Source: Eledone cirrhosa (Eukaryota). From it: DNA of 64,000 bases. The stretch is taken from contig CAXHJY010000093.1 of assembly GCA_964016885.1 (NCBI GenBank), positions 62,001-126,000 on the forward strand, given 5' to 3'. The position numbers and the translations under genes were made by a program. Below are positions 6,767-29,095 of this stretch, in pieces. The notes beneath the pieces were generated by a model that was not told the DNA's origin, did not search any database, and was given only the letters and a program-made list of their open reading frames with translations. How positions within the stretch are numbered: position 1 is the first letter of the stretch; the number at the start of each line of letters is the position of its first letter.

Positions 6767-6952
6767 ACCCTCCAAATTGATGACAATTACTGTGGAACTC
6801 TAGATATTAATACACCAATAGCTGGTACTGTACCAGTGGAGGTTCTCATTACACAGGAATTCCCTTCCATTATAGCTTCTGCTGTAGCCGTATCGGTAAC
6901 TTATGATTATACTGTGGCTTTCATTGGAACTACCGTTGGAACCATTATCAAA
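6767..6952 (+). CDS. PlexB: Plexin internal coding exon (Sema domain, C-terminal part), 62 codons, phase 0/0
   Basis: Acceptor tctctcttccag| and donor |gtaagt bound a stop-free 186-bp frame: TLQIDDNYCGTLDINTPIAGTVPVEVLITQEFPSIIASAVAVSVTYDYTVAFIGTTVGTIIK. This matches the plexin Sema motif IDDxFCGxDxNxPxxG...TVxFxGTxxGxxxK. From recalled alignments it is closest to invertebrate PlexB-type plexins; the A vs B assignment needs a phylogeny. Confidence 0.9.
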
Positions 6953-7030
6953 GTAAGTACAGAGTTTTTAAATTTTATTTTATTGTCAGTCTTGAAATTT
7001 TAATTTGGGATCTGAAAAATAATAGTTTAA

Positions 7031-7226
7031 ACCTTTAGCATTTACATTACCCTATATTTACTATTGTATTTTCATAATATCGAATCTGCAAGATTTTGAT
7101 ATTATTTATTTTGAGAACAATACCTTAACATAAGTATGAGCTGCCAGTTACAGCTGGTTTGAACAGAAAGAGGTGAGAGAATTCTGGCTGGATATGGCGG
7201 CCGGTTTAAAATTGAATGCTAAAGGG
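7031..7226. mobile_element. piggyBac-like MITE
   Basis: TTAA|acctttagcatt...aatgctaaaggg|TTAA. Homologous copies at 54711-54930 and 34937-35095. Confidence 0.8.
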
Positions 7227-7310
7227 TTAAGCTCTCATTCCATCCTGTAAAGTGCCACCTGCTGGTGACATGATAGAAAGTACTCGCTCCACCCAGTAAG
7301 GGGGTAATAA

Positions 7311-7368
<58 letters not shown>

Positions 7369-7893
7369 TTATCATCACTTAATGTCCATTCTCTCTGTTA
7401 GTGTGAGTATATGTAAATATGAATATGAAAGTGGAACACTGGACATAAAATGATGACGATGATGATGATGATGATGATGATGCATATATAACTCTAAATG
7501 TGTGTGGGTGTGTGTATGTTTGAGGTTGTGTCAACATGAAATATGATTTTGCATGTTATATAAGTGTTGCACAAACAGAGAAAGATAAACATGAGACAAA
7601 AATCTTGCTGCAAGCAAGTTGAAGTCTGGTTTGAACAATTGTCTTACATGCAAGGGACACCTGTTTTGTTAAAAGCTTCGCTGACTTCTCATCAATAGCA
7701 TCAGTCTTAAATTGCATTGGAAATGTTGCTAGAGGAGGTGGGGTGGATAATAAGGCAGGAAAAGGTGAGATGTTATAACCTAGGTGAAAACTAAAGTGCT
7801 TACTACAACTGTTTGATTCCTTTTCTTTCTTATTTTCTTCTAAATTACCCAGAGACGTGTAAAAACAGCGCAGCATTAAATATATGTTATGTA

Positions 7894-7927
<34 letters not shown>

Positions 7928-8499
7928 AGTACGTATGAAGTAGTGTATGTATATATGTAGTGTGTATGTATGTGTGTAGTGTATATAGCAGTATGTATGC
8001 AGTGTATATTAAAGCACCTCGAGATGAACAGAGGGGTTAGAGTGGTGGGGGTTGTGAGAGCAATGTTGGCGGGGGGGGGGGCAAGGTAATTGATGGTGTG
8101 GTGAAGAAGAAAGAAAGAGGGTAATGGTTAGATTAGTGGGTTTCTTTATTTTTCTCTTTTTTTTTTAATGTGAGATTTGCTGTAATTTGCTTGAAACCTG
8201 TTTGTTTCCCTCTCTGAAAAATAACGGCTCTATCATTAATACCATCATCATCACCATCACCATCACCACCTTCATCATTACCATCATCATCACCATCATC
8301 ATCACCATCATCATCATCATCACCATCATCATCATTACCATCATCATCACCACCATCATCATCACCATCATCATCACCATCATCATCATCACCATCATCA
8401 TCACCATCATCAGAAAAATAAAAATAAAATGAGATAAAACTATCCACAGAAAATGGAGAAAACATGTTTTTTTCTTCTTCTCTCCTTCCTCCTGTACAT

Positions 8500-9330
8500 C
8501 ATCATCATCATCATCATCATCATCACCATCACCATTACTGTGTTAGTACCATCAGATCATCACCATCACCATCACCATTACTGTGTTGGCACCATCAGAT
8601 CATCATCATCACCATCACCATCACCATTACTGTGTTAGCACCATCAGATCATCATCATCACCATCACCATCACCATTACTGTGTTGGCACCATCAGATCA
8701 TCATCATCACCATCACCATCACCATTACTGTGTTGGCACCATCAGATCATCATCATCACCATCACCATCACCACTACTGTGTTGGCACCATCAGACCATC
8801 ACCATCACCATTACCACTATTGTGTTAGCACCATCAGATCATCATCATCACCATCACCATTACCACTATTGTGTTAGCACCATCAGATCATCATCATCAC
8901 CATCACCATCACCACTATTGTGTTGGCACCATCAGATCATCATCATCACCATCACCACTACTGTGTTGGCACCATCAGACCATCACCATCACCATTACCA
9001 CTATTGTGTTAGCACCATCAGATCATCATCATCACCATCACCATCACCACTACTGTGTTGGCACCATCAGACCATCATCATCACCATTACCACTATTGTG
9101 TTAGCACCATCAGATCATCATCATCACCATCACCATCACCACTACTGTGTTGGCACCATCAGACCATCACCATCACCATTACCACTACTGTGTTGGCACC
9201 ATCAGATCATCATCATCACCATCACCATTACCACTACTGTGTTGGCACCATCAGATCATCATCATCACCATCACCATTACCACTACTGTATTGGCACCAT
9301 CAGATCATCATCATCACCATTGTCATTCAA
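8500..9330. repeat. Minisatellite, ~43-49 bp unit built on (CAT/CAC)n
   Basis: ctgtgttggcaccatcagatcatcatcatcaccatcaccatcaccatta in tandem. Confidence 0.95.
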
Positions 9331-9432
9331 TGTTGTCATACCAACCAATTTCTGTTTACCATCAAATAATGTTTATTTTGTGTCCTCCTGTCTCTTGAAA
9401 ACTGGCCATTTATAGTTGGTTTGCTGGTGTCA

Positions 9433-9500
<68 letters not shown>

Positions 9501-9767
9501 ACTCCAAACAAGCCCACCTCCACCCATCACAGCCAATAATCCTAACCTCAATCAGGTCAGCAGTTTTCGGAAAACAACACTGCAGGTGTTTGAAAATTGT
9601 TCTTGGTCTCTCTCTCTCTGCCCCTCTCTCTGTCTCTCTCTGTCTCTCTCTCTCTCTCTCTCTTCTATAAATAGGTGCATGTTAAACATTACTTATATAT
9701 ATATATATATCATCATCATCATCGTTTAACATCTATCTTCCATGCTACATGCTAACATGTATATATA

Positions 9768-9840
<73 letters not shown>

Positions 9841-9937
9841 TGTTTAGGTTGAATTCTTATCTGATTGCAAATCTTGTAAATTGTGTTTTCTTTTTCATAG
9901 TTGCATATTTTTCTTTATATCTTGGTATTTTTATTAA

Positions 9938-10125
9938 CCTCTCAGCAGCCATAGCTGTGACATGGAAGGTTTTAAAAACAAACTTTACTTCTCTTAAAAA
10001 CCAAAGCTAGATAGTGGTTTACAAATCTGTTTCTTATAGTAAAGAATTTATATGCTATCTAATGCGTGTGTGTGTACCTATATGTTATAATGTAAGGGTT
10101 ATAGAAAGATATGCCAGACTGAGGG
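9938..10125. mobile_element. Possible piggyBac-like MITE
   Basis: TTAA|cctctcag...ctgaggg|TTAA; only short imperfect TIRs. Confidence 0.45.
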
Positions 10126-10139
10126 TTAAGTAGTATTAA

Positions 10140-10418
10140 AATAATAATAATATTGAAATTATTGTGTACAGTGTTCAGGTGCACTACAACTCATGAAAGG
10201 TGTATGTATAGTACATAGAATAATATACAAATGTCAGGAAAATGAACAGTATATGAGTCATGATATACATGTGTGTGTGTGTGTGTGTGTGTGTATGGAG
10301 GGGGAATATCAGGTGTAGTGTTGGCGAATCTCAGGAAGTATGGAGGTTTTAAAGGATGCAGTGTCTCAACAGCTAACAACTGATGCAGGTAGTTTGTTCC
10401 ATGCTTCATCAACTCTGA
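10140..10418 (-). mobile_element. CR1/L2-clade LINE 3' fragment
   Basis: Minus strand RVDEAWNKLPASVVSC*DTASFK (the WNxLP...FK C-terminal motif), 3' UTR and (ATT)n tail. Confidence 0.7.
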
Positions 10419-11357
10419 TAAATCAGGGCTGTGTATGTGGTAGTTATAGAAAGACATCCTAAACTAAGGGTTTTAGTCAGTGTTTAGTGAATGGTTAGTA
10501 ATATTAAATTAGTAAATCAGGGCTGTGTGTGTGGTAATTATAGAAAGACATCCTAAACTAAGGGTTTTAGTCAGTGTTTAGTGAATGGTTAGTAATATTA
10601 AATTAGTAAATCAGGGCTGTCTATGTGGCAATTATAGAAAGACATCCTAAACTAAGGGTTTTAGTCAGTGTTTAGTGAATGGTTAGTAATATTAAATTAG
10701 TAAATCAGGGCTGTCTATGTGGTAGTTATAGAAAGACATCCTAAACTAAGGGTTTTAGTCAGTGTTTAGTGAATGGTTAGTAATATTAAATTAGTAAATT
10801 AGGGCTGTGTATGTGGTAGTTATAGAAAGACATCCTAAACTAAGGGTTTTAGTCAGTGTTTAGTGAATGGTTAGTAATATTAAATTAGTAAATCAGGGCT
10901 GTGTGTGTGGTAGTTATAGAAAGACATCCTAAACTAAGGGTTTTAGTCAGTGTTTAGTGAATGGTTAGTAATATTAAATTAGTAAATCAGGGCTGTGTGT
11001 GTGGTAGTTATAGAAAGACATCCTAAACTAAGGGTTTTAGTCAGTGTTTAGTGAATGGTTAGTAATATTAAATTAGTAAATCAGGGTGTCTATGTGGTAG
11101 TTACAGAAAGACATCCTAAACTAAGTGTTTTAGTCAGTGTTTAGTGAATGGTTAGTAATATTAAATTAGTAAATCAGGGTTGTGTATGTAGTAGTTATAG
11201 AAAGACATCCTAAACTAAGGGTTTTAGTCAGTGTTTAGTGAATGGTTAGTAATATTAAATTAGTAAATCAGGGCTGTCTATGTGGTAGTTATAGAAAGAC
11301 ATCCTAAACTAAGGGTTTTAGTCAGTGTTTAGTGAGTATTTAGTAATATTAAATCAT
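10419..11357. repeat. Minisatellite, 94-bp unit, ~10 copies
   Basis: taaatcagggctgtg...gttagtaatattaaattag with period 94 (10419, 10513, ...). Confidence 0.95.
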
Positions 11358-11516
11358 GTTCATATATTTGTGTCCTTTACTAGTTTTAGTCATTAGCCTA
11401 TGATGTAGGGACACTATCTTCGAAGAGTATAATTGTTCATATTGACCCAGTATTGACTCATCCTTACCTTATTGATCCCTAAAGCTGAAAGGCAGAGTTA
11501 ACCTGGCCTGTATTTC

Positions 11517-13297
11517 ACCTTGACCACCATAGTATTACTATATTTCAGTACAGTATATATATAACCTTGACCACCATAGTATTACTATATTTCAGTACAG
11601 TATATATATAACCTTGACCACCATAGTATTACTATATTTCAGTACAGTTTATATATAACCTTGACCACCATAGTATTACTATATTTCAGTACAGTATATA
11701 TATAACCTTGACCACCATAGTGTTACTATATTTCAGTACAGTATATATATAACCTTGACCACCATAGTATTACTATATTTCAGTACAGTATATATATAAC
11801 CTTGACCACCATAGTATTACAATATTTCAGTACAGTATATATATAACCTTGACCTCCATAGTATTACTATATTTCAGTACAGTATATATATAACCTTGAC
11901 CACCATAGTGTTACTATATTTCAGTACAGTATATATATAACCTTGACCACCATAGTGTTACTATATTTCAGTACAGTATATATATAACCTTGACCACCAT
12001 AGTGTTACTATATTTCAGTACAGTATATATATAACCTTGACCACCATAGTGTTACTATATTTCAGTACAGTATATATATAACCTTGACCACCATAGTGTT
12101 ACTATATTTCAGTACAGTTTATATATAACCTTGACCACCATAGTATTACTATATTTCAGTACAGTATATATATAACCTTGACCACCATAGTGTTACTATA
12201 TTTCAGTACAGTATATATATAACCTTGACCACCATAGTGTTACTATATTTCAGTACAGTATATATATAACCTTGACCACCATAGTGTTACTATATTTCAG
12301 TACAGTATATATATATAACCTTGACCACCATAGTGTTACTATATTTCAGTACAGTATATATATAACCTTGACCACCATAGTATTACTATATTTCAGTACA
12401 GTATATATATAACCTTGACCACCATAGTGTTACTATATTTCAGTACAGTATATATATAACCTTGACCACCATAGTGTTACTATATTTCAGTACAGTATAT
12501 ATATAACCTTGACCACCATAGTGTTACTATATTTCAGTACAGTATATATATAACCTTGACCACCATAGTGTTACTATATTTCAGTACAGTATATATATAA
12601 CCTTGACCACCATAGTATTACTATATTTCAGTACAGTATATATATAACCTTGACCACCATAGTGTTACTATATTTCAGTACAGTATATATATAACCTTGA
12701 CCACCATAGTGTTACTATATTTCAGTACAGTATATATATAACCTTGACCACCATAGTGTTACTATATTTCAGTACAGTATATATAAAACCTTGACCACCA
12801 TAGTGTTACTATATTTCAGTACAGTATATATATAACCTTGACCACCATAGTGTTACTATATTTCAGTACAGTATATATATAACCTTGACCACCATAGTGT
12901 TACTATATTTCAGTACAGTATATATATAACCTTGACCACCATAGTGTTACTATATTTCAGTACAGTATATATATAACCTTGACCACCATAGTGTTACTAT
13001 ATTTCAGTACAGTATATATAACCTTGACCACCATAGTGTTACTATATTTCAGTACAGTATATATATAACCTTGACCACCATAGTATTACTATATTTCAGT
13101 ACAGTATATATATAACCTTGACCACCATAGTATTACTATATTTCAGTACAGTATATATATAATCTTGACCACCATAGTGTTACTATATTTCAGTACAGTA
13201 TATATATAACCTTGACCACCATAGTGTTACTATATTTCAGTACAGTATATATATAACCTTGACCACCATAGTATTACTATATTTCAGTACAGTATAT
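11517..13297. repeat. Minisatellite, 47-bp unit, ~38 copies
   Basis: aaccttgaccaccatagt(g/a)ttactatatttcagtacagtatatatat in tandem. Confidence 0.97.
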
Positions 13298-13430
13298 GTA
13301 GAATTGGTTTTGTTATTGTAAACTGTGTAAGAAGACAATGTTTCTTTTGTTATGTTGAAGGGTGAAAGACCATGGTTAGAGCTTGACAGGGGGCAGGGGA
13401 ACAGAAATTTAGATATATCCCCCCTCCCTC

Positions 13431-13466
<36 letters not shown>

Positions 13467-13939
13467 ACTGATGACAAAGATGACAACCACATCAAAACAA
13501 CAACCACCATTGTTTAGACATGTAAGTGGGGGTAGTGGTAGTGATGTTAATGAAATGGTAGTGGTGGTGGTGGTGGTGGTGCTAGTAGTGGTGGTGGTGG
13601 TGGTAGTATTGGTGGGGGTGTCAGTGCAGTGGTGGGGAATGGTAAACATACTATCCATCCTTGTTATACCACCACTAGTGGTATTGGTGACAGTAATAGC
13701 AATGGTGGTGGTGGTGGTGGTGGTGGTGACTATAGTGGTGTTGGTGACAGTAATAGTGGTGTTGGTGGCCATGACTATACTGGTATTGGTGACAGTAATA
13801 GCAGTGGTGGTGGTGGTGGCAGGGATGATGACAAAGATTAACATAGTCAAAATGAAATAAGACAGCAGAGGTGGGTGATGGATGGTCTATGGCTGGGAAG
13901 AATGTCAGACCAGCTCCAGAATAGGTTTCCACAGTTATA

Positions 13940-15145
13940 TGAGACACACACCCCTACCACATATCCCAGCTACACACACATACACACACTCCTACCACAT
14001 ATCCCAGCTACACACACATACACACACTCCTACCACATATCCCAGCTACACACACATACACACACCCCTACCACATATCCCAGCTATCAGCACACATTAC
14101 ACACACACACCCATACCACGTTTTCCCCCATCCCAGCTACCACTACACACACACACACACACACACACACTTACATTTGTCACATTTCAATCACCATATC
14201 ACACACACACATCCTTTCTACACATGTGCCATCCCAACCACTACACATCTCTCAGACACACACTACTCTACATGTCCCATCACAGCCATCACCACTACAC
14301 ACACACACACACCACGACACACGCAGACCACGGCACACAAACATACACACCACGACACTCAGACCACGGCACACAAACATACACACCACCACACACACCA
14401 CGACACACACACACAAACACACACACCACGACACACAAACATACACACCACGACACACAAACATACACACCACCATGGCACACAAACATACACACACACC
14501 ACGACACACCACGGCACACAAACATACACACCACGACACTCAGACCACGGCACACAAACACACACCACCATGGCACACAAACATACACACCACCACACAC
14601 CATGGCACACAAACATACACCACGACACACAGACCACGGCACACAAACATACACACCACGACACACAGACCACGGCACACAAACATACACACCACGACAC
14701 AGACCACGGCACACAAACATACACACCACCATGGCACACAAACATACACACCACCACACACCACAGCACACAAACATACACACCACGACACACAGACACA
14801 GACACACAAAGAGTTAGATGAGAGAGGCCATGTTTAGGTGACATGCTATTTACATTGGCTTCGTTTTGAGAAACAGAGAAGACAGAATCCTTTTCTGGTA
14901 AAATAGCCCCAAGTCTTCTGTTGTAGCAATAATAATACCACCACATAATAATAATACCACCACATAGTAATAATACCACCACATAATAATAATACCACCA
15001 CATAATAATAATACCACCACATAATAATAATACCACCACATAATAATAATACCACCACATAATGATAATACCACCACATAATAATAATACCACCACATAA
15101 TAATAATACCACCACATAATGATAATACCACCACATAATAATAAT
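13940..15145. repeat. Cluster of CA-rich minisatellites and a 19-bp array
   Basis: ctaccacatatcccagctacacacac x4; accacggcacacaaacatacacac repeats; aataataataccaccacat array at 14925-15145. Confidence 0.9.
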
Positions 15146-15175
15146 GATATATCAAACGACGACCACCACTACAGA

Positions 15176-15335
15176 ATAATTGTTTCTACGTTAGGCACAA
15201 GGCCAGCAATTACCCAAGTGTATTACTGGTACATTATTTTATCGACCCCGTAAGGATGAAAGGCAAAGTTAACCTCGACGGGATTTGAACTCCGACCGTA
15301 AAGGGACGTAACTCTGCTGGAAAGCATGGCGTCCA
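15176..15335 (-). mobile_element. SINE family 1
   Basis: Reverse-complement match to 29208-29394. Confidence 0.85.
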
Positions 15336-16572
15336 ATAATAATAATGATATTGGTGATAATAGAAAAAATAATAATGGTGTAGTGTGTTGTGGAGGCGAA
15401 ATATAGTGTGTGTGTATTTGGTATATTATATGTGTGTGTGTGTGTGTGTGTATTTGGTGTAGTGTGTGTGTATTTGGTATATTATAATATGTGTGTGTGT
15501 GTGTGTGTATTTGGTGTAGTGTGTGTGTGTGTGTGTGTGTATTTGGTGTAGTGTGTGTGTGTGTGTAAAGGAAGCTGTCTGCTGTTACAAAGATATGTCG
15601 TTAAGATTGGGTTTTGTCTTTGTGTCACTTCTGTCTTGTATGGCTCAGCTTTCTTCCAGTATTACCCCCCCCCCTCTCTAGATGTCCCCACTCTCTTTCT
15701 AGATGCCCCCCCCGCTCCATCACACTCTCTCTCTAGATGTTCCCCCCACTCCCTCTAGATGTCCTCCCCCCACTCTCTAACCTCTCCATCCATCTTGTGA
15801 AATTCTTCTTCTCTGGTTTGTTAGTTTACTCCAGAATAGGTTTCCAGAGTTACGACACACACGCACGCACACACACACACATACACACACATAAACATAG
15901 GCTGACCAAGATACTCTCATGGAATGACCAACAAATGTTGTTTGGAAGGGGAATATTCCTTTCGAGTTAATATATAGGAATAAAGAGTGTGTGTGTGTGT
16001 GTGTGTGTAGATTGAATTGCATATGTGTGTGTGTGATTTCTCATTTAGTGTGAGTATGTAACCATCTAATGAAACCTGTGTACGTGTGTGTACATACACG
16101 TACACACACATACATGTACACACACACACGTACATACACATACATGTACACACACGTACATACACACACATGCACGTACACACACACACGTACACACACA
16201 CGTACACACACACATTCACACACATGTACACATACATGTTCACACACACATACGCGTATACACACGTACACATACACACACACATACATATACACACATA
16301 CATACATACACGTACACAGACATGACATTGTTGAAATACCTTGTAGGAAAGGTGATAGCCAAGTGTGGTGGTTTTTGTGTCAACTGCTGAATCTACTGGC
16401 AAATCACTTTACGCCATCTGTGATTCTCGTTTGGTCATGTGACCAGTTCTGTTCCCCCCCACCCCTGTTGTGTTATATGTAGATGTAATGTTATGGTTAC
16501 TGGTCTATAGGTGTGGTAGATGTACTTTTAAGATTACAATCAGTGTTCTTAAATTGTCACCATCCACAAGTC

Positions 16573-16760
16573 TGTTAGCCATCACCATCCATTACCATCC
16601 ATTAGCCATCACCATCCATACCATATGTTAGCCATCACCATCCATTACCATCCGTTAGCCATCACCATCCATTACCATCCGTTAGCCATCACCATCCATT
16701 ACCATCCGTTAGCAATCACCATCCATTACCATCCACCATCTGTTAGCCATCACCATCTGT
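16573..16760. repeat. Minisatellite, 27-bp unit
   Basis: gttagccatcaccatccattaccatcc in tandem. Confidence 0.9.
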
Positions 16761-16889
16761 TGAAACTGCAAGAGCTCAGCCGTCGGGTCTCAACTCTTTA
16801 TAATATAACCATACTCTACTACTCCATGTATTGAGTTCTCTGGTGAGTAATGGTCTAACTAGTTTAAAACTGAATTCATCCTGATGTGT

Positions 16890-17067
16890 ATATATAAATA
16901 TACATATGTCCCAAGGCTCTGATACCATCAACACTATAAACACAGAGCTGGCATATCTAAGAACTGACTAACTGCCTGATGAGGTCATAGCCATTCAATG
17001 GCTATCATCGAAATATATATAGCAGTAAATAAAGGATTATGAGTTCATGCAATTGACTTCTGTTTCG

Positions 17068-17071
<4 letters not shown>
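16890..17071 (+). mobile_element. ~180-bp hammerhead-bearing non-autonomous element inserted in (TA)n
   Basis: Near-identical end to end to 25286-25465 (one 2-nt indel, two substitutions seen). Order is HHR, AATAAA, short tail, (TA)n. Confidence 0.75.
16971..17026 (+). ncRNA. Type-I hammerhead ribozyme motif (family B), intact core
   Basis: actgc-CTGATGA-GGT c ATAGCCAT tca ATGGCTAT c ATC-GAAA-TATATA-TA-gcagt. 5-bp stem I, G-C-closed long stem II, palindromic ATATATAT helix III. Predicted cleavage after 17021. Confidence 0.85.
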
Positions 17072-17147
<76 letters not shown>

Positions 17148-17354
17148 CCCAGGAGGTGTAACTAGGAGTTACTGCAGGTTCACCCGGGAGATATATATAT
17201 ATATATCATCATCATTTTACGTCCGCTTTGCCCTGCTTGCAAATATATATATATATATATTTCATTTGCACCGTTTCCTCTCACCCCCTTTTTTCTATAT
17301 GTCTCTCCACCACTCCCCTACACACCCTTGGAACTCTCTTCCCACACACTTTTC

Positions 17355-17386
17355 GCCTGAAGAAGGGCTTATGCCCGAAACGTCGT
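17355..17386 (+). ncRNA. Minimal hammerhead ribozyme motif (family A-related)
   Basis: gc-CTGAAGA-A-GGGC ttat GCCC-GAAA-CGT-C-gt. Perfect core and stem II, ACGT palindrome, GUC site; stem I is only ~2 bp. The tail (agcgtgaaactaataaa...gtactg) resembles family A and ends in (TA)n at ~17480. Confidence 0.7.
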
Positions 17387-17474
17387 TCCCCACCACCACC
17401 CCACTCTCAAGAGCGTGAAACTAATAAACCTTTGTTCGTACTGCCTCTCTGTTTTGTTCCCGTTCAATTTTTTA

Positions 17475-17544
<70 letters not shown>

Positions 17545-17603
17545 GTTGATTTAAAACTGCACTATCCACAAGTGTTTTTTAGCCTTCATATCATGTTCTC
17601 CTG

Positions 17604-17670
17604 TTTTATCTGATGAAAACACAAATATTATTGCATGATGATGTTTGTTTTTGAAATGCGCATAATAAAA
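17604..17670 (+). ncRNA. Type-I hammerhead ribozyme motif (family C)
   Basis: ttttat-CTGATGA-[15-bp stem II aaacacaaatattat/atgatgtttgttttt, 1 mismatch, loop tgcatg]-GAAA-TGCGCA-TA-ataaaa. 6-bp stem I, palindromic ATGCGCAT helix III. Confidence 0.8.
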
Positions 17671-17700
17671 TACATGGAACTCCTTTAACCATCTTTTGAT

Positions 17701-17757
<57 letters not shown>

Positions 17758-17887
17758 GTGAGGTTTTTTTACAAAATGAAAAATAACCGAGGTGTCCTAC
17801 ACGAGTAAAAGTATAAAGAAAAAAAGATGAAATCGAAAATGCAACTGGAGTCTTATTTATAAAAATATATATATATTTATTTGGTTC

Positions 17888-17923
17888 CTTTACCGGTTTC
17901 GCAGTTCTTCTGCTTTTCAAAAG
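17888..17923 (-). ncRNA. Minimal type-I hammerhead motif with U3-A8 core variant (family D)
   Basis: Minus strand: ctt-TTGAAAA-GCAG aagaa CTGC-GAAA-CCGG-TA-aag. Followed by AATAAA and a tail ending at the (TA)n at 17703-17750. Confidence 0.65.
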
Positions 17924-18014
17924 TAGAGTTGAGATGGAGGGTCTGTGGTTTTTCTCACTGTTGAAACTACAAGAACTCAGCTGTCGGGTCCCAACTTTTT
18001 ATAATATAACCTTA

Positions 18015-18064
<50 letters not shown>

Positions 18065-18225
18065 ACCTGAATGTGTAGTTGTAATCACTAAAGGAAGACC
18101 CCTCAACATGTAATCATAGAGGTAAATATACTATACTAATATAAGATACATGGCCGACTGGTGTATACCTTCCTAGGTACTCACAGTTTCCCAAAGCAAG
18201 TTGATGTTACTTCATTCCTCATATA

Positions 18226-18258
<33 letters not shown>

Positions 18259-18608
18259 TTGTGTATATATGTATGTGTATGTATATATTTGTGTATATGT
18301 ATGTATATATGTGTGTATATGTATGTATATATTTGTGTATATATGTATGTGTATATTTGTGTATATATGTATGTGTATATTTGTGTATATATGTATGTGT
18401 ATATTTGTGTATATATGTATGTATATATTTGTGTATATGTATGTATATATGTGTGTATATGTATGTATATATGTGTGTATATATGTATGTGTATGTATAT
18501 ATTTGTATATATGTATGTATGTATATATTTGTGCATATATGTATGTGTATGTATATATTTGTGTATATATGTATGTGTATGTATATATTTGTGTATATGT
18601 ATGTATAT

Positions 18609-18815
18609 GATCTGGAGATCTCTCTGCACTTGCCGTCACATGGTACCATGGGCCCAGCACTATGTGTCAATAATTGTCACAAGTGTAGTGTTTGTACCAG
18701 AGTTTTCAAGTCGCTGGCTGGACTGAAAAGTCACACTCGTTCAGCGCATCGGTAGGGGTTCTCCTACATGGATATAAAGTAGTGACCGTACTCGAAAACG
18801 AGTTGGCAGCCACCA
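18609..18815 (+). mobile_element. LINE (probably RTE) 3' end with a C-terminal C2H2 zinc finger
   Basis: CSVCTRVFKSLAGLKSHTRSAHR* (stop at 18755), then a short 3' UTR with hairpin ctcg-aaaa-cgag ending in (TATG)n. No splice context. Confidence 0.6.
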
Positions 18816-19043
18816 TATGTATGTATGTATATATATGTGTGTGTGTGTGTCAGTATTTTTTGTTCTAAATGATGATGGTAGTAGTGTTGGTGGTGATTGT
18901 GTATACATGTGCATGTGTGACTGTAGACATGCCTATCTGTCCATGTGGACATGTGTTACTATGTCCCAGACAGCCATGTTTCTTTAATAGTACACCCTCC
19001 CCTTCTCTCTAGCCCCAGTTTTATCATTATTGCTGTATTCCAG

Positions 19044-19077
<34 letters not shown>

Positions 19078-19914
19078 CAACTCAGAACACACCCACTCCC
19101 AATCTTTTACTCCCCCCCCCCTCCCTCAATCTGTTCTGCTCCATCAATCACGCAATACTGTGCACGATTCCAGTTGTAATAAACTTAGCTGGAGAGGCAG
19201 AACATTCTTTAGAATTAGGGTGTGTTTGTGGTGGTGGTGGTGAGGATATGGTGGTGGTGGTGGTGGTGGGGATATGGTGGTGGTGGTGGTGGTGGGGATA
19301 TGGGAGGGAGGGAGAGAGAGAGAGTCCCAAGTTAAGAGAGAGGTAAAACCCTAGTAATAGTGAAGATGATACGGTGGTGTGGTGGTGGTGGGTTTGTTTT
19401 TTTTTTCATTGATATGAAGGGTTTTCGAATCATAGATAGGGTGGGGTGGGGTGGAATATGACGTTGACGATGATGGTGATGGTGGTGATATCGACGACGA
19501 CGACGACGATGATGGTGATGGTGATATCGACGACGACGATGATGATGATGGTGATGATGGTGATATCGACGATGACGACGACGATGATGATGATATCGAC
19601 GACGACGACAAGATGGTCGCCGCCCCCTCCCCCAACAATGGCAGCTGAACGATGAAGTCTAAATCCTTCTTTACCGTCTTTCATAGACTCCAGCAACTTT
19701 TTCACATTTGAAGCATTTTGACAGCAGCTTTGCATTTCATGCTTGGCTATAGATGTCTGTGTGTCTCTGTCTCTCTGTCTGTGTCTCTCTGTCTGTCTGT
19801 CTGTCTCTGTCTGTGTCTCTGTCTGTCTCTGTCTCTCTGTCTGTCTCTGTCTGTGTGTCTCTGTCTGTCTGTGTGTGTCTCTCTGTCTGTGTATGTGTGT
19901 GTCTGTGTGTATGT

Positions 19915-19953
<39 letters not shown>

Positions 19954-20319
19954 TGTCTGCCTGTGTGTGTGTGTGTATGTCTGTGTGTGTGTGTATGTCT
20001 GTGTGTGTAATATCACACATGGATTGTATATATATATATATATATATGCGTGTGTGTGTATAGTTATATATATGTGTGTGTGTGTGTATAGTTATATATA
20101 TGTGTGTGTGTGTGTGTTATATGTGCACACATGTATGTGGGGGTATATATATATGGTGGTAGTGTAGGTGAAGGTGGCGGCAGTGTGACTAACAAACACC
20201 CCCCCCCCCTCGTATGTCCTTCTGGCCATCAGCAGCAGTTATTATATATTTCAGCATTTCTTTTGCTATGACATTTCTTAATTATCTTTTACATGGAATG
20301 GTGTTATTATTGTCAGTTA

Positions 20320-20540
20320 GGGTGGCGGAGTGGCAGTGTCGGTAGAGCGGCGGACAGCATGCTTAGTAGCATAGAGTTGCGTCCCTTTATGATCTGAGTT
20401 CAAATCCTGTTGAGGTTAGCTTTCCCTTTCAACCTTTCGGGGTCGATAAAATAAAGTACCAGTAACACACTGGGGTTGATTTAATCGACTTCCCCCTCTC
20501 CCCAAATTGCTGGCCTTGTGTCTAAAGTAGAAACCATTAT
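20320..20540 (+). mobile_element. SINE family 1, long-tail variant
   Basis: Same head and body, plus an extra gttgatttaatcgacttcccc segment. Confidence 0.85.
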
Positions 20541-20555
20541 TATCTCTACTACAGA

Positions 20556-21045
20556 TGTTGTTCCTCTCTAAATTTCTGTGGCATTGTGGCACCAGTTATA
20601 TACTGAGGTTCAACTAAATCATCTCTGTATATATTGTTCTCCTCTAAATTTCTGTGGCATTGTGGCACCAGTTATATACTGGGGTTCAACTAAATCATCT
20701 CTATATATATTGTTCTCCTCTAAATTTCTGTGGCATTGTGGTACCAGTTATATACTGGGGTTCAACTAAATCATCTCTATATATATTGTTCTCCTCTAAA
20801 TTTCTGTGGCATTGTGGTACCAGTTATATACTGAGGTTCAACTAAATCATCTCTATATATATTGTTCTCCTCTAAATTTCTGTGGCATTGTGGCACCAGT
20901 TATATACTGGGGTTCAACTAAATCATCTCTATATATATTGTTCTCCTCTAAATTTCTGTGGCATTGTGGTACCAGTTATATACTGGGGTTCAACTAAATC
21001 ATCTCTATATATATTGTTCTTCTCTAAATTTCTGTGGCATTATGC
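20556..21045. repeat. Minisatellite, 76-bp unit, ~6 copies
   Basis: ttgttctcctctaaatttctgtggcattgtgg(c/t)accagttatatactg(g/a)ggttcaactaaatcatctctatatata in tandem. Confidence 0.95.
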
Positions 21046-22534
21046 CAACTGAAAGAAAAAAATCTTTAAAATTTCTTTTTGTTGCTATTTTGGAGCTCTC
21101 CTTCCGAAGTTGTCTGTTAGGGAACTCTCCATAATAATACCAGTGGTGTTATTTTCTTTTATTAAAGTTGTTTCAGTCTTTAGACAGAATAAGAGTGTGT
21201 GGTTCTAAATAGAATCTAGAACCATAACAGCCGCCAGCTCCTGATTATGGTGAAAGAGAGGAGGAGGTTTTTCTAGTTTCTTTATATCACTCCCTACCTA
21301 AGGAAAGAAGGGATGTGATGGTGGCGGTGGTGCTGGTAGTGGTAGTGGTGGTGGTGGTGGTGGTGGTTGTAATGCTGGTGGTAGTGGTAGTAGTGGTGGT
21401 GCTCGTAGTGCTGGTGATAATGATGATGGTGGTGGTGGTGGCAGTGCTGGTAGTGGTGGAGGTGATGGTGGTGGTCGTAATGCTGGAAGTAGTGGTGGTT
21501 GTAGTAGTGCTGGTGGTGGTGGTGGTGGTGGTTGTGGTGGTAGTGGTGATGGTGGTGGTGGTTGTGGTGGTGGTGATAGTGGTGGTGGTAGTGGTGGTGA
21601 TAATGGTGATGGTGGTGGTAGTGGTGGTGATAATGATGGTGGTGGTGGTGATAGTGGTGGTAGTAGTGGTGGTAATAATGGTGGTGGTGGTGATTACCAT
21701 GATGCTATTACAGACAGTTACAATAAACTCTATAACTAAATAAACTCTGTATGGAGGCAGTTGTAATAACTTAATCATTCCCTGACATCAACTATTACCA
21801 ATTTGTAAATATATCTCCCTTATAATACAGCAGATTTCATACTTATACACTCTTAATAGCCCCACCACCACCATTATCATTATCATCACACCACCACCAC
21901 CATCATTATCACCACCATCATCATCATTATCATCACCTCACCACCATCATCATTATCATCACCACCACCACCACTACCATCATTATCACCACCACCATCA
22001 TCATTATCATCACACCACCACCACCACCACCACCACCACCACACCCCTCCCAGGAATAAGTGAGTGAAGAAGATGATAATATCAAGCAGTCACAACTCTT
22101 GGCAGAAACGTAAAATAAAGTGTCTTGCTGAAGGACATAATGCACATCAGCTGATCTGGGAACCAACCTCACAACCTCACAATTCTGAATCCAATTCTCT
22201 AACCACTAAGCTACAAGTCTTTACTATGTAACTGAGTTTAATTTCATATATATATGATTATAATATAATGTAAATGTTGGAAACCCTATTCCTTTTTTCC
22301 ACAGAAACTGAAAACAGTTAAATATGTTCGTGAGAGTCTGGTTGCAGAAATGTGTTTATTAAATACTGTTTTTATATATATTTATATATATTTTATATAT
22401 TTTTATATATATTTTATATATATATATATATATGCAACACATAACTGATTGAATATATCGAAGTGTAAACTTCAATATGTATGTATGTATATGTACGTAT
22501 GTGTATATATACATGTGTATGTGTATGTGTGTAT

Positions 22535-22603
<69 letters not shown>

Positions 22604-22707
22604 ACACATAACTGATTGAATATATTGAAGTGTAAACTTCAATATATATGTATGTATGTATATGTATGTATGTGCATATATACATGTGTATGTGTGTGTG
22701 TGTGTAT

Positions 22708-22748
<41 letters not shown>

Positions 22749-22754
22749 TACATA

Positions 22755-22853
22755 CAGAGTATCCCAAAAAAATATATACACTTTGATTATCTGCCCAGGC
22801 AATATTTATTAGGATGCTGATGAAGTGTATTTACATTTTTGGGGGACACCCTG
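22755..22853. mobile_element. Tc1/mariner-like MITE (99 bp)
   Basis: TA|cagagtatcccaaaaa..atacactt...aagtgtat..tttttgggggacaccctg|TA. Confidence 0.75.
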
Positions 22854-22855
22854 TA

Positions 22856-23009
<154 letters not shown>

Positions 23010-23544
23010 AATCTAGATTGCTTTTCGGAAATGAATGAATATTACAACAAACCTTTAGGCCTGGTGTTTAATTTAAAAGCAAATGTATTTTCACGAATCA
23101 GTAAAAGTGCAAGTTTGTTCTAAACCCTCTCCACCACAACTACCACTATATCCCTCATTGTCATTTGGTTACACACACACACATGCATATATATATACAC
23201 ACACACACACTCACACATATATATATATACACACACACTCACACTCACACGAGTGCCTTTGGACTGTTTCTGTCAACTAAATTCATTTACAAGCCATTCA
23301 TCAGCCAAGGGCTATAGAAGGAGAGAAGACACTTGCTCAAGGGTGCCATGTAGTTGTAAAACAAACGTCATAACCACATTGCCAATGTCTGCCTTTCTTT
23401 GATTAAAATGAATTTAAAAAGAAAACCAATATCTGGTTCCTAACAATGGACGACTCTTTATTTTGCTTCCCCTTGTTTGTTGTGTTATGATTATATCTGA
23501 ATACAGCTCAAGTCAGTTGTAATATTATAATAGATTCGAGTGTG

Positions 23545-23900
23545 GTGGATCGGTAGAGGGTCGGAGACCATGGTCCTTATTGTCTTGGCAGTATCGGTAG
23601 AGGGTCGGACACCATGCTTTAACGCATAGTTATGGCCCTTGCTATTCTGAGTTCAAATCCCGCCGAGATTAACTTTGCCTTTCATCCTTACATGGTCGAT
23701 AAAATAAAGTACCAGTAATACACTGGGTAATTGCTGGCCTTGTGCCAAAAGTAGAAACAATTATTACCGTACAGGGGTGGTGGAGTGACGGTATTGGTAG
23801 AGTGTTGGACACCATGCTTTGCTGTTTATAGTTCAGCTTCTTTACATTCTGAGCTCTATTGGCAGTAGAATCGGTAGAGTGTCGGACATCATGCTCATTT
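23545..23900 (+). mobile_element. SINE family 1 full copy with three additional head fragments
   Basis: Head motif (t)cggtagag.gtcggacaccatg at ~23549, 23594, 23793 and 23870; full body at ~23587-23762. Confidence 0.8.
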
Positions 23901-24309
23901 TTGAGGCAATAAAAATTCAGCGAAATACACTCCCCTCCTCCCCTTCCTCTTCCCAAGCCCTGGATTGCTTTACAACTCCTCATTGATCCATCATCTCCAC
24001 CACTCCACTACCCCATCTCCACCACTCCACTACCCCATCTCCACCACTCAACGACCCCTCCCCATCTCCACCACTCAACGACCCCTCCCTCATCTCCACC
24101 ACTCAACGACCCCTCCCCCATATCCACCACTCCACTCAACTCCCCCACCCCACCTCTCCACCACTCAACAACCCCCACCACTCAACAACCCCCACCACAC
24201 CCCACTACTCAACAACTCCCCCACCCTCTCCATCACTCAACAACTTCTGCAACTCTTTTATAAGGGATTAAAAGAGATAATATCCTCATGAAAAAATGTT
24301 AGTCTGCTG

Positions 24310-24610
24310 CTGTTGACAGTGTGTATATAGTATTGACAGTGTGTATATGATGTTGACAGTGTGTATATGATGTTGACAGTGTGTATATAGTATTGACAGT
24401 GTGTATATAGTATTGACAGTGTGTATATAGTATTGACTGTGTGTATAGAGTATTGACTGTGTGTATAGAGTATTGACTGTGTGTATAGAGTATTGACAGT
24501 GTGTGTATGATCTTGACAGTGTGTATATAGTATTGACAGTGTGTATATAGTATTGACTGTGTGTGTATGTGATGTTGACAGTGTGCGTGTGCATGCGATG
24601 TTGACTGTGT
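24310..24610. repeat. Minisatellite, 20-bp unit
   Basis: tattgacagtgtgtatatag in tandem. Confidence 0.9.
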
Positions 24611-25285
24611 GTGTGTGAGTTGATGTGTAGTGTACACTTCAGTTAGTGTGTATGTGTACACTGTGTGGGTGGGGTGGTGTAAGTCATGTTGACACAACTA
24701 TCATGGCTTTTGTTGTTTTTTCCCCCCTATTTAAGTTGCTTGCTCTTTTCTGATGTTAAACTGTTACCATGGTGAGTGCCAGCTGCACCTCACCCCACCT
24801 ACACGCATGTGTGTGTATGTGTATCTGTGAATATATAAGTGTGTGTATGTGTATGTGAATATATATGTATGTGTATGTGTGTGAATGTGAATATATGTAT
24901 ATGTATGTGAATATATAAGAGTGTATATGTGTATCTGAATATATAAGTGTGTATGTGAATATATAAGTGTGTGTATATGTGTATTTGAATATGTGTGTGT
25001 GTGAATATAAGTGTGTGTATATGTGTGCTGTTATGGCTTTACACCTATGAAGGTTTAACTGTTCTTCCTGTCATTACATCTCATACGTTTCACATCAACT
25101 CTTAACTCCCTCAACTAATTTAAGAGAAAATAACTAAAAATATATTTGTTAATCCAAATGCTTATAGTGTTTTTAATACTGGACAGATGGCTGTGAACAT
25201 TTACAGTATGTGTTATTTACAATATTAAAATACAGATTGAAATTTATATTGTAATGATTTAGTAGAAAATGTCTAGAACCAAATC

Positions 25286-25465
25286 ATATATAAATATACA
25301 TATGTCCCAAGGCTCTGATACCATCAACACTATAAACACAGCTGGCATATCTAAGAACTGACTAACTGCCTGATGAGGTCATAGCCATTCAATGGCTATC
25401 ATCGAAATATATATAACAGTAAATAAAGGATTATGAGTTCATGCAATTGACTTATGTTTCGTCAC
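25286..25465 (+). mobile_element. Second copy of the ~180-bp hammerhead-bearing element
   Basis: Same boundaries and sequence as 16890-17071; flanked by TA-rich sequence on both sides. Confidence 0.75.
25365..25420 (+). ncRNA. Type-I hammerhead motif (family B, second copy)
   Basis: Identical to 16971-17026 except G>A at the first 3' base of stem I (acagt vs gcagt). Confidence 0.8.
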
Positions 25466-25467
25466 TA

Positions 25468-25503
<36 letters not shown>

Positions 25504-25552
25504 GTAATAATAATAAATATAAATAATAAAATCCGAAGAGGGCTCGATAAGG

Positions 25553-25603
<51 letters not shown>

Positions 25604-25719
25604 TAAAAACCATAGAGCAAATATTTATTAAAATAACAGATTAAAGTTTAAGGGTGAAAGCACCAATTCTTTGCTTAAACTCTAATCTGTTATTTTTATA
25701 TATATATATATAAGTCCTA

Positions 25720-25959
25720 AATAAATGAGGTCGTGTAGGTGTCACGACAAAAAAACACACAGTCCACGCTGTAATGTGGCCGTGTAGGTAACGCGGTAAA
25801 AACCTCCCAGTCCACACTGTAAACATGGTTGGTGTTAGGAAGGGCATCCAGCTGTAGAAAACCCACTAGACAGTCCTATGCAAGCAAGACAACCAATCTT
25901 GCCTCAAGTGGGAAAATTCCCGTTTAAACCCATGCAAGCGTGGAAGATGGACGTTAAAC

Positions 25960-26000
<41 letters not shown>
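25720..26000 (+). mobile_element. SINE/LINE 3' part with an RTE-type tail and (GAT)n
   Basis: ggtgttaggaagggcatccagc.gtagaaa...catgcaagcgtggaagatggacgttaaacgatgatgat. Minus-strand copies at ~47350-47550 and ~57650-57820. Confidence 0.8.
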
Positions 26001-26001
<1 letters not shown>

Positions 26002-26155
26002 ATATATATGATGGCTGCAACTTGATTTCAAGAAATGCCATTGCTTGATACTTAAGTATGAGCATTACAGTTATGGCTTTGTTGTCTTGGTAGGGACTTG
26101 CCTATGGCCAGCCATACCATGCATTGCAAAAAAATGTCACATATCAAGTGGTGCA

Positions 26156-26209
<54 letters not shown>

Positions 26210-27082
26210 GACACAAAAATATAACATATTTTCATACACATACAAGCAAAGATGTTGTGAAAGCTCTATACATCATTCTGTCTCTGTATGATTGAGTGTG
26301 TGTGTGTGTGTGTGTGGTAGTTTGTGTCTGTGTGATTGTGTGTGTGTGCATCGCTGCACATGTGTGTGTGTGCATCGCTGCACATGTGTGTGTGTGTGCA
26401 TCGCTGCACATGTGTGTGTGGAGAAACTGTGGTATACACACATATATGTACACACACACACACACATATATATATACACACATATATATATATACATGCA
26501 TATATGTACACATGCATATATATATACATGCATATATGTACACATATATATATATATATATATATACAAGCATATATGTAGACATATATATATACATATA
26601 TACACACATATATGTACACATTGTGAGTAGGGGAGATGTGGGGTAGATATACACACATATATACACACATATGTACACAGAAAGCATTAATTTGTAATTA
26701 TGTAAAGGTCAGCATGGTGACCTTTATTTCTCTGTCTCTTTCTATGGCAGACATCAACAAATTACTGTCTGTTTTATGGGGTTGAGAGGGAGATCAACCT
26801 CATCCTTGACAGGGGATCTCTATTTAGACATTAATCTCCACACCTCACCTCTGCCAATCACACCTCACTGTTTAAATAATATCATCACACCCCATCCCAC
26901 CCCAAATAAATGCCCACAGCCCCTAAATGTTTATTTCCCCTGCTCTTCTCCAATTGCTCCCACCATCGCAACTAACTATTGTAAAATGCCCTCCGTTCCT
27001 TTCACTCACTCTACAGTTCATCTTTCACAGTTGTTTCAACTTTGCCTTTTATCAACAGTGACAATGGGGGGCAAATGAGGGC

Positions 27083-27542
27083 CAGGTTTACCAATAGGTG
27101 TAGTAGGCTATTGACCTAGGGTCCTTAGTAGGCACCAGTAGGGTCAGGTTTACCAATAGGTACAGTAGGCTATTGACCTAGGGTCCTTAGTAGGCACCAG
27201 TAGGGTCAGGTTTACCAATAGGTACAGTAGGCTATTGACCTAGGGTCCTTAGTAGGCACCAGTAGGGTCAGGTTTACCAATAGATGTAGTAGGCTATTGA
27301 CCTAGGGTCCTTAGTAGGTACCAGTAGGGTCAGGTTTACCAATAGGTGTAGTAGGCTATTGACCTAGGGTCCTTAGTAGGCACCAGTAGGGTCAGGTTTA
27401 CCAATAGGTACAGTAGGCTATTGACCTAGGGTCCTTAGTAGGTACCAGTAGGGTCAGGTTTACCAATAGGTGTAGTAGGCTATTGACCTAGGGTCCTTAG
27501 TAGGCACCAGTAGGGTCAGGTTTATCAATAGGTGCAGTAGGC
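27083..27542. repeat. Minisatellite, 62-bp unit, ~7 copies
   Basis: caggtttaccaataggtgtagtaggctattgacctagggtccttagtaggcaccagtagggt in tandem. Confidence 0.95.
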
Positions 27543-28135
27543 ATGTGGTTAGATTGTCTCAGAAAAGAATTGCTAGACAGGTGGTGGTGGAGGTGGGGTG
27601 ATAGCGGGGTATGTGATGGAGGAGGAGGTGGTGAGGGAGGTGATGGTGATGATGAGGGTGGTGATGGGGTTGTGATGGTTGTGGAGGGAGAGAGGTATGT
27701 GATGGTTGTGGAGGTGATGATGAGGGTGGTGGCAGCAGCAGCCAGTAGTGATAGTCATGGTGGGAGCAATTATTTCTGGTTTAGTTAAATATTTTAATAA
27801 TTCCAAAAAATATTTTTTTTAAAATTAAAAAGAAAAGAAAAGAAAGAAGCCATCTGCCAAACCCATATTCTGACTTTAAGAGTTTGTTCTAGTGGAAGAA
27901 GGTGCTTCTACCCTCACCCCCAGTAGTTTCTGTGATACCTCTTGTGATTTTAACTACCTAGGCAATGGTACCAACTCACCCCTATCTCTCCTCCACCCAC
28001 CCTTATCTCCCCCATCCTGATGTACTCTAGATGCAGCACTTCATATTTTAAAAAGAAAATAAAACAATATTTGAAATAATTCCCTTTTACAGCTGATGTG
28101 ATTTATTACATTATTTTACAAGAGAATCCATAATG

Positions 28136-28168
<33 letters not shown>

Positions 28169-29029: not shown

Positions 29030-29095
<66 letters not shown>

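What the first reader, a model, noticed from the sequence alone, without database searches (positions are those of the whole stretch)
16890..18020. Ribozyme hotspot: four different hammerheads within ~1 kb, each separated by (TA)n
Seen: family B (16971,+), family A-related (17355,+), family C (17604,+) and family D (17888,-), plus tail-family fragments at 16760 and 17958. They alternate with TA tracts at ~17072, 17245, 17480, 17703 and 18020. Inference: one TA microsatellite acted as a landing pad for serial insertion, with each insertion leaving target on both sides. The result is an array of three sense ribozymes in one transcript.
Basis: partly seen in the sequence, partly recalled or inferred. 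Interest (0 to 1): 0.75.

Follow-up and report, generated by a model that had tools for sequence, protein, structure and literature searches.

The report
Penelope retroelement pile-up in plexin intron
Four real self-cutting-RNA (hammerhead) motifs sit within 1 kb because each is the short tail end of a different, very abundant jumping-gene family, and these most likely landed one after another in the same TA-repeat patch of a long intron of an octopus plexin gene; this is an ordinary pile-up, and the lone motifs are predicted to cut weakly or not at all.

Summary
The four type I hammerhead motifs are real, at the stated places, and the predicted cut sites are right. Each is the 3' pseudo-LTR end of its own Penelope-like retrotransposon (PLE) family, with 2,500-16,300 motif copies and longer copies encoding RT plus GIY-YIG endonuclease (B, C Hydra-like; A, D Neptune-like). 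The 'tails' are halves of a fifth hammerhead family. The landing-pad idea holds genome-wide: 153 of 162 element ends abut TA; the same C-(TA)n-D junction occurs at 22 other loci (about 2 expected); and neighbour enrichment equals that around random TA tracts. Four-family clusters are uncommon (0 of 162 anchors), but simulation gives about 2 (uniform) to 45-56 (TA-clustered) per genome. New: the cluster lies in a 56.7-kb intron of a plexin-A gene, so three motifs are sense to a real pre-mRNA. They are dimer-type minimal hammerheads with mutually incompatible helix III palindromes, so a working three-ribozyme array is not supported. Chimera and empty site could not be tested. This scan noted similar PLE pile-ups on other DNA.

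The parts
6767..6952 (+). Plexin-A coding exon (Sema domain), AG...GT bounded; residues 380-440 of the closest named protein
   Evidence: 56 of 61 residues identical
6953..63677 (+). 56.7-kb host intron that holds the cluster (between consecutive exons)
63678..63806 (+). Next plexin-A coding exon, residues 441-483
   Evidence: 40 of 43 identical
16757..16885 (+). T1: 3' half (end of helix II, GAAA, helix III, GUC site, 3' pLTR end) of a fifth hammerhead family T; no CUGANGA; 88-92% identical to other copies (oldest piece)
   Evidence: whole motif in L299, L302
16903..17071 (+). Family B pLTR end (Hydra-like PLE). Hammerhead 16971-17026, AUA site at 17021, helix II with a C-C mismatch, helix III palindrome all A/U
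17072..17147 (.). (TA)n tract
17148..17190 (.). 43-bp fragment of another repeat, with TA on both sides
   Evidence: one other copy, L058
17204..17243 (-). 38-bp end of a (CAT)n-tailed dispersed repeat (SINE/LINE-like; that label is recalled, not tested), with TA on both sides
   Evidence: 95-97% to several loci
17260..17475 (+). Family A pLTR end (Neptune-like PLE). Hammerhead 17355-17386, extra A after A9, GUC site at 17384, helix I only 2 bp with a private A>G at 17355
17476..17540 (.). (TA)n tract
17541..17702 (+). Family C pLTR end (Hydra-like PLE). Hammerhead 17602-17672, AUA site at 17664; 0 of 158 differences from the family majority (youngest)
17703..17751 (.). (TA)n tract shared tail-to-tail by C and D
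17752..17958 (-). Family D pLTR end (Neptune-like PLE). Hammerhead 17923-17888 with U3-A8 core, GUA site at 17891; antisense to the host gene
17958..18019 (+). T2: second family T half, joined to D's 5' end without TA; shares its 5' breakpoint and a rare T allele with T1 (55 of 61 identical)
18018..18046 (.). (TA)n tract
18065..18222 (-). Old repeat end (78-90% to other copies) with a decayed hammerhead-type motif (GAAA at 18190, H17 at 18178)
25301..25465 (+). B': second family B copy in the same intron and strand, 8.4 kb downstream; a G>A change breaks the first helix I pair next to its own cut site

Best explanation
The four motifs are minimal type I hammerheads at the 3' pseudo-LTR ends of four separate high-copy Penelope-like retrotransposon families, lying in a TA-rich patch of a plexin-A intron, most likely through independent serial insertions into that shared target, and they are predicted to cut weakly or not at all as lone copies. 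Shown: each piece ends at its family's exact 3' terminus next to TA; B, C and D begin at their family's common 5' truncation point, with short AT-rich microhomology; longer copies carry RT plus GIY-YIG ORFs. Inferred mechanism: the endonuclease nicks (TA)n, reverse transcription is primed there and stops after 160-220 nt; each insertion leaves or renews TA next to it, so later elements land alongside. Inferred order from divergence: T first, then D and A, then B and C. In the parent elements the hammerheads likely process tandem precursor RNA as same-family dimers; here they are passengers.
For: Copy counts with <=1 mismatch: B 3,744, A 2,549, C 13,070, D 16,310. RT and GIY-YIG ORFs lie upstream in long copies of all four families (Pfam RVT_1 and GIY-YIG above cut-off for the D ORF). 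3' ends abut TA in 153 of 162 complete-ended copies against 6.3% background. C-(TA)n-D tail-to-tail junctions: 22 other loci with different flanks and lengths, about 2 expected. C-(TA)n-B: 9 loci (about 0.45 expected, computed by hand). Other-family motifs within 1.4 kb of 162 anchors: 66 against 28 expected. Their density at 250-500 bp is 0.31/kb, the same as around random (TA)12+ tracts, 0.30/kb. Neighbours show no strand bias, 31 same and 35 opposite. Heterodimer helix III is impossible or unfavourable. PMC4209133 describes the same motif type; PMC8557442 describes TA targeting.
Against: Four families in 950 bp were seen at 0 of 162 anchors and 0 of 22 C-D junction loci; three families at 1 of 162, where the simulation expected 3.3-4.0, so it over-predicts. 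D's 5' end is not in TA. T1 and T2 look like one duplicated copy, which simple TA insertion does not explain. Pfam did not recognise the B and C RT ORFs or pass the A fragments at cut-off; their assignment rests on motifs and pairwise similarity. The C-B search with the window's own minority allele gave 0. No empty site and no spanning read were found. No RNA data.
Confidence: 0.88

Rival explanations
1. The sense motifs cut the plexin pre-mRNA during transcription and tune its output, for example B pairing with its second copy B' 8.4 kb downstream into a double hammerhead that would cut at 17021.
For: B, A, C and B' are all sense in one intron. The B:B' double-hammerhead fold scores -33.1 kcal/mol against -28.1 for the two separate folds, and the core that would cut B keeps all five helix I pairs. 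B and C keep 5-bp and 8-bp helix I.
Against: Helix III probability is about 0 for all three in the folded 16890-17720 transcript, and B's helix I is about 0; B's A/U palindrome can also pair with the adjacent UA tracts (the competition is inferred). Even dimeric PLE motifs cut poorly in PMC4209133. The copies are young and no more conserved than their families. About 170,000-190,000 such motifs lie in the genome, so sense intronic copies are expected in number.
Confidence: 0.05
2. The cluster is an assembly chimera joined through TA repeats.
For: It lies on a small 148-kb contig. No contig or read bridges the TA tracts.
Against: The left flank is single-copy, and a contig at single-copy depth covers 16684-16786 across the minisatellite/T1 joint with no differences. 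T1 and T2 at the two ends share a breakpoint and a rare allele. The plexin exons on both sides are consecutive and in order. The same junction type recurs at 22 other loci, all on the large chromosome-scale contigs.
Confidence: 0.04
3. The block moves as one composite, multi-ribozyme non-autonomous element (retrozyme-like) framed by the T1/T2 direct repeats.
For: A 61-bp direct repeat (90% identical) frames B to D.
Against: No other locus among the family hits carries the same neighbours. The pieces differ in age: 0 of 158 differences for C against about 8-12% for T. There are no tandem same-family units of the kind non-LTR retrozymes have.
Confidence: 0.02

Closest known systems
Minimal type I hammerheads of metazoan PLE pseudo-LTRs (Cervera and de la Pena 2014, PMC4209133; read parts 1-2 of 4: abstract, results, discussion)
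   Same: Palindromic short helix III, a long helix II or short helix I, an unpaired base after A9 (family A), the U3-A8 core variant (family D), mostly single motifs from truncated elements, and opposite-strand pairs 100-700 bp apart.
   Different: The sections read do not describe mixed-family pile-ups or octopods. Motif density here (38 per 600 kb) implies far more copies than the thousands per genome reported there.
Hydra-clade PLEs (Craig et al. 2021, PMC8557442; read passages and section 11)
   Same: [quoted passage not shown] Both carry a hammerhead and insert into (TA)n.
   Different: The RWK motif reads RWT or RWI in C. Full elements here run about 4 kb rather than under 3 kb. No phylogeny was built.
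Neptune-clade PLEs (motifs as given in PMC8557442)
   Same: D and A have the CX2-5CxxC linker and a CCHH-type endonuclease; D has DKG. Both show microsatellite bias.
   Different: The paper calls Neptune paraphyletic and Nematis shares the linker, so the clade label is motif-based only.
Non-LTR retrozymes (PMC7229834, passages; bioRxiv 10.64898/2026.07.22.740005, part 1 of 5)
   Same: Short units of 150-250 nt with a type I hammerhead, linked to PLEs.
   Different: Retrozymes are tandem repeats of one unit. Here the neighbours belong to different families, are separated by target TA and cannot form cross-family dimers.
Intronic self-cleaving ribozymes such as CPEB3 (PMC10919898, search listing only) and conserved amniote intronic hammerheads (mentioned in PMC7229834 passages)
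   Same: Located in an intron of a neural gene, sense to the pre-mRNA.
   Different: Those are conserved single loci that work as monomers; these are young copies of high-copy repeats with dimer-type motifs.

Membership tests
Type I hammerhead ribozyme | CUGANGA and GAAA boxes and an NUH site in type I order | tested here: met
   B, A and C canonical; D has the U3-A8 swap in 100 of 100 listed family matches, a natural covariant per PMC3088659 (passage) and PMC4209133
Type I hammerhead ribozyme | Helices I and II can form | tested here: met
   Helix I: B 5, C 8, D 3, A 2 bp; helix II 4-15 bp. Weak for A and D.
Type I hammerhead ribozyme | Stable helix III as a monomer | tested here: not met
   0-2 bp in the monomers; the catalytic fold is 2-9 kcal/mol above the MFE; probability about 0 in the transcript
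Type I hammerhead ribozyme | Self-cleavage | not testable with these tools
   Needs in vitro transcription
PLE minimal hammerhead (dimer type) | Palindromic helix III allowing a same-family dimer | tested here: met
   Perfect palindromes of 8, 4, 8 and 6 nt; homodimer helices -3.7 to -12.5 kcal/mol; heterodimers fail
EN+ Penelope-like element | [quoted passage not shown] | tested here: met
   L314 (D, Pfam RVT_1 and GIY-YIG above cut-off), L119-L126 (C), L318-L319 (B), L138 and L321-L322 (A); B, C and A by motif and similarity
EN+ Penelope-like element | pLTRs in partial tandem, 5' truncation, inverted 5' copies, short tail extension | tested here: met
   Tandem pLTR-ORF-pLTR in L121, L317, L319, L321, L322; inverted copies in B, C, D; native TATA-like run and tail after the pLTR end
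EN+ Penelope-like element | Family T (tails) has its own RT-EN ORF | tested here: inconclusive
   Whole hammerheads found, but no ORF in two 6.4-kb stretches
Hydra clade (B, C) | DKT, CxCx5C linker, no CCHH, CxxC and CxH, (TA)n insertion | tested here: met
   Read from the ORFs against PMC8557442 section 11; DKT was seen only for C, as the B fragments read do not reach it
Hydra clade (B, C) | RWK motif and phylogenetic placement | tested here: inconclusive
   C reads RWT or RWI; no tree was built
Neptune clade (A, D) | CX2-5CxxC linker plus CCHH endonuclease; DKG | tested here: met
   DKG seen in D only; the linker is shared with Nematis
Neptune clade (A, D) | RT phylogeny | not tested
   No reference PLE set was on hand
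Non-LTR retrozyme | Tandem repeats of one hammerhead-bearing unit | tested here: not met
   Four unrelated units, one copy each
Host-conserved intronic ribozyme | Conserved at the orthologous site beyond neutral expectation | tested here: inconclusive
   Runs of two related organisms hold the families but not the unique flank; no related genome is held

The most novel reading that the evidence does not exclude
TA-targeting Penelope ends piled into a long octopus intron give the plexin-A pre-mRNA a working cut site: two copies of one family 8.4 kb apart fold into a double hammerhead in cis and cleave the intron at 17021. Tens of thousands of such intronic motifs could then act as a genome-wide, polymorphic layer of co-transcriptional control.
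Probability: 0.04. Interest if true: 0.7.

Novelty: new member of a known kind. Interest (0 to 1): 0.2.

Why it matters
As it stands it is a clear worked example of known biology. Several PLE clades compete for the same (TA)n targets in a genome with a TA tract every 650 bp and roughly 170,000-190,000 hammerhead motifs from about 40 families. It offers a ready substrate for two open questions: whether PLE minimal hammerheads ever cut host pre-mRNA, and how PLE 5' junctions form (fixed truncation points at AT microhomology; a possible duplication of over 100 bp next to D). If cleavage in the plexin intron were shown, it would link a retroelement ribozyme to control of an axon-guidance gene.

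Tried and rejected
Rfam: no hammerhead match; its hits were TA artefacts. A DNA search for family C returned nothing because its words are too common; the pattern search replaced it. Empty site: the left flank is single-copy, the right flank is itself a repeat, and runs of two related organisms and two RAD runs did not cover the unique flank. Chimera test: contigs and short reads cannot bridge the TA tracts. Expression: no RNA holder listed. Pfam missed the C, B and A RT ORFs; PDB had no match to the D ORF; the second exon alone matched neither PDB nor Pfam and was placed by pairwise comparison. An apparent 105-bp flank duplication at L246 turned out to be a duplication of the element's own sequence and was dropped. 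No long flank duplication like T1/T2 was found at other loci (400 bp searched for A, B, C; 900 bp for D). The 5'-flank count for B's 'inverted' class was dropped because the reference copy carried other insertions. A likeness of 16917-16928 to an LTR primer-binding site (recalled motif) was set aside: it is ordinary family B sequence inside a PLE end. Composite-element and cross-family dimer ideas were rejected. Paper searches listed no study of hammerheads in octopus PLEs or of mixed-family pile-ups; the library is partial and no supplements were read, where octopus families may be listed.

Full report
Observation. The sequence and a motif scan show four type I hammerhead motifs: B (core 16976, +), A (17357, +), C (17610, +) and D (17920, -). 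Their H17 positions are 17021, 17384, 17664 and 17891. TA tracts lie where stated. In 60 grid-sampled 10-kb stretches of the genome the strict scan gave 17 hits, against 2 in reversed sequence and 0, 1, 1 in shuffles; a relaxed scan gave 38 against 2. Rfam does not detect them. The genome is 3.0 Gb and holds 928 (TA)6+ tracts per 600 kb; the window has the same density.

What each piece is. Each motif lies 90-170 nt from the fixed 3' end of a dispersed repeat. Pattern counts with up to one mismatch were B 3,744, A 2,549, C 13,070 and D 16,310. All 100 listed D matches have the U3-A8 core although the pattern allowed C3-G8. Long copies carry RT plus GIY-YIG ORFs upstream, with tandem or inverted pLTRs. 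The D ORF passes Pfam cut-offs for RVT_1 and GIY-YIG; B's endonuclease fragment hits GIY-YIG below cut-off; A's fragments hit only weakly; C has no Pfam hit. B is 50% identical to C over 193 residues and C aligns to D's RT at 23%. C and B carry the Hydra-clade motifs listed in PMC8557442 section 11, a clade reported to insert into (TA)n. A and D carry the Neptune-type linker and CCHH. These labels rest on motifs; no tree was built. The two tails are 3' halves of a fifth hammerhead family, whole in L299 and L302. A decayed sixth motif lies at 18065-18222, and two other repeat scraps sit between B and A.

Junctions. Of 182 copies analysed, 162 had a complete 3' end and 153 of these abut TA, against 6.3% of random positions. 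At the 5' end only 38 of 102 truncated copies abut TA. In pattern-picked copies the 5' ends cluster: B at 69-74 nt upstream of the core in 15 of 30, D at 32-43 in 15 of 22, C at 65-70 in 6 of 21. The window copies fall at 73, 38 and 69; A (104) has no peak. The family sequence at these points is AT-rich, and each element's own sequence continues with a TATA-like run after the pLTR end. This fits nicking and priming at TA and joining by microhomology (inference). Divergence from the family majority: C 0 of 158, B 1 of 164, A 3 of 213, D 9 of 206 (some in a homopolymer run; nearest copy 2 of 206); T copies are 88-92% alike. The pieces therefore arrived at different times.

Is the clustering more than chance? 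I started from 205 family loci, dropped 22 as overlapping or partial and 21 without an intact central motif, and kept 162 anchors. The pattern-picked ones come from the first part of the largest contig and the others are best BLAST hits, so the set is not a random sample. Other-family motifs within 1.4 kb numbered 66 against 28 expected, peaking at 250-500 bp (25 against 5). The density there, 0.31/kb, equals that around random (TA)12+ tracts, 0.30/kb. Neighbours were 31 same-strand and 35 opposite. A direct genome search found the C-(TA)n-D tail-to-tail junction at 23 loci including this one, all with TA spacers and different flanks, with about 2 expected. C-(TA)n-B gave 0 with the window's minority allele and 9 with a shorter motif. 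Four families within 950 bp occurred at 0 of 162 anchors and 0 of 22 junction loci; three families at 1 of 162. Simulation gives about 2 four-family clusters per genome under uniform placement and 45-56 under the observed local density, but it over-predicts three-family spans (3.3-4.0 against 1), so the true number is likely lower. The site is a tail event of an ordinary process.

Host transcript. A Sema-domain exon at 6767-6952 and an exon at 63678-63806 match consecutive residues 380-440 and 441-483 of a protein named plexin-A1 of Octopus sinensis at 92-93%. Earlier coding sequence lies 30 kb upstream on the same contig and strand. So the animal is an octopod and the cluster lies in a 56.7-kb intron, with B, A and C sense and D antisense. 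A second B copy lies in sense 8.4 kb downstream.

Would they cut? Monomer helix III is 0-2 bp; the catalytic folds are 2-9 kcal/mol above the MFE; in the folded 16890-17720 transcript helix III probability is about 0 for all three, and helix I is about 0 for B and A and about 0.6 for C. The palindromes differ in length or mismatch (B with C: +3.7 kcal/mol), so neighbours cannot complete each other. A has a private change that weakens a 2-bp helix I. PMC4209133 reports no cleavage for a single PLE motif and low cleavage for dimers. A B:B' dimer is feasible in isolation (-33.1 against -28.1 kcal/mol), which keeps a small chance for the regulatory reading.

Unresolved. T1 and T2 begin at the same base, where all 14 other copies read on upstream. 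They share a T at 16767/17968 that is G or A in 14 of 14 copies and G in about 90% of family reads. D's own upstream sequence shares a 6-nt word with the minisatellite/T1 joint. This suggests that T2 duplicates T1, possibly as a long target duplication made with D. Against this, T1 and T2 differ at 6 of 61 sites while D is only 1-4% from its family (P 0.001-0.36 across that range), and no similar duplication was seen at other loci. An older duplication is equally possible. No read bridges the block; a chimera is unlikely on internal evidence but is not excluded.

Comparison and verdict. The motifs are the known minimal PLE hammerheads, including the extra-A and U3-A8 variants (PMC4209133; PMC3088659 passage), and TA targeting is known for Hydra and Neptune elements (PMC8557442). 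They are not tandem retrozymes (PMC7229834 passages; bioRxiv 10.64898/2026.07.22.740005 part 1). PMC13282606 (passages) reports PLE activity and TE hotspots in an octopus at 100-kb scale. My searches listed no paper on this in octopods; supplements were not read. Earlier notes of this scan, seen after my reading was formed, reach the same class of answer on other DNA. New member of a known kind; interest 0.2.

Noticed in passing
window 6767-6952 and 63678-63806 (+); contig C120 about 31.3-32.4 kb: Plexin-A gene spread over the small contig, with a first coding exon of over 1.1 kb and introns of 36 and 57 kb.
   Followed up: yes
window 25301-25465 (+): Second family B copy in the same intron and strand, with a helix I change next to its cut site; a possible dimer partner of B.
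   Followed up: partly
window 16757-16818 and 17958-18019: Direct repeat framing the block, with a shared breakpoint and rare allele: a possible long target duplication or an older duplication.
   Followed up: partly
genome-wide sample: About 39 hammerhead sequence groups among 418 hits; the U3-A8 core recurs in several unrelated groups; several groups (including B and C) have a mismatch at the fourth pair of helix II.
   Followed up: partly
L314:4770-4880; L317; L315: Family D pLTRs are often cut at an internal TTTATA site and continue as microsatellite; inverted arms of D and T stop at the same kind of site.
   Followed up: no
L008, L025, L026, L163, L195, L228, L241: A very common T-related mini fold-back element: TA, a 35-50 bp inverted arm, a break inside helix II, then the 3' end; it lacks the first core box in the copies read.
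   Followed up: no
L003 and L037 flanks: Inverted duplications of flanking DNA around TA tracts, suggesting that the tracts are break-and-fold-back sites.
   Followed up: no
window 3685 (-), 47991 (+), 50459 (-), 50497-50537 (+), 50891 (+), 3808-4161 (-): Other whole or decayed PLE hammerhead ends in the window, including an inverted C-like pair and T-related pieces.
   Followed up: partly
window 10419-11354, 11517-13297, 20558-21041, about 45230-46000: Young minisatellite arrays (94, 47, 76 and 13 bp units); the 47-bp unit ends in a TA run.
   Followed up: no
L313, L315, L321: Other elements nested between the pLTRs of full-length copies (family C inside D; a Neptune-like ORF in antisense before A).
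   Followed up: no
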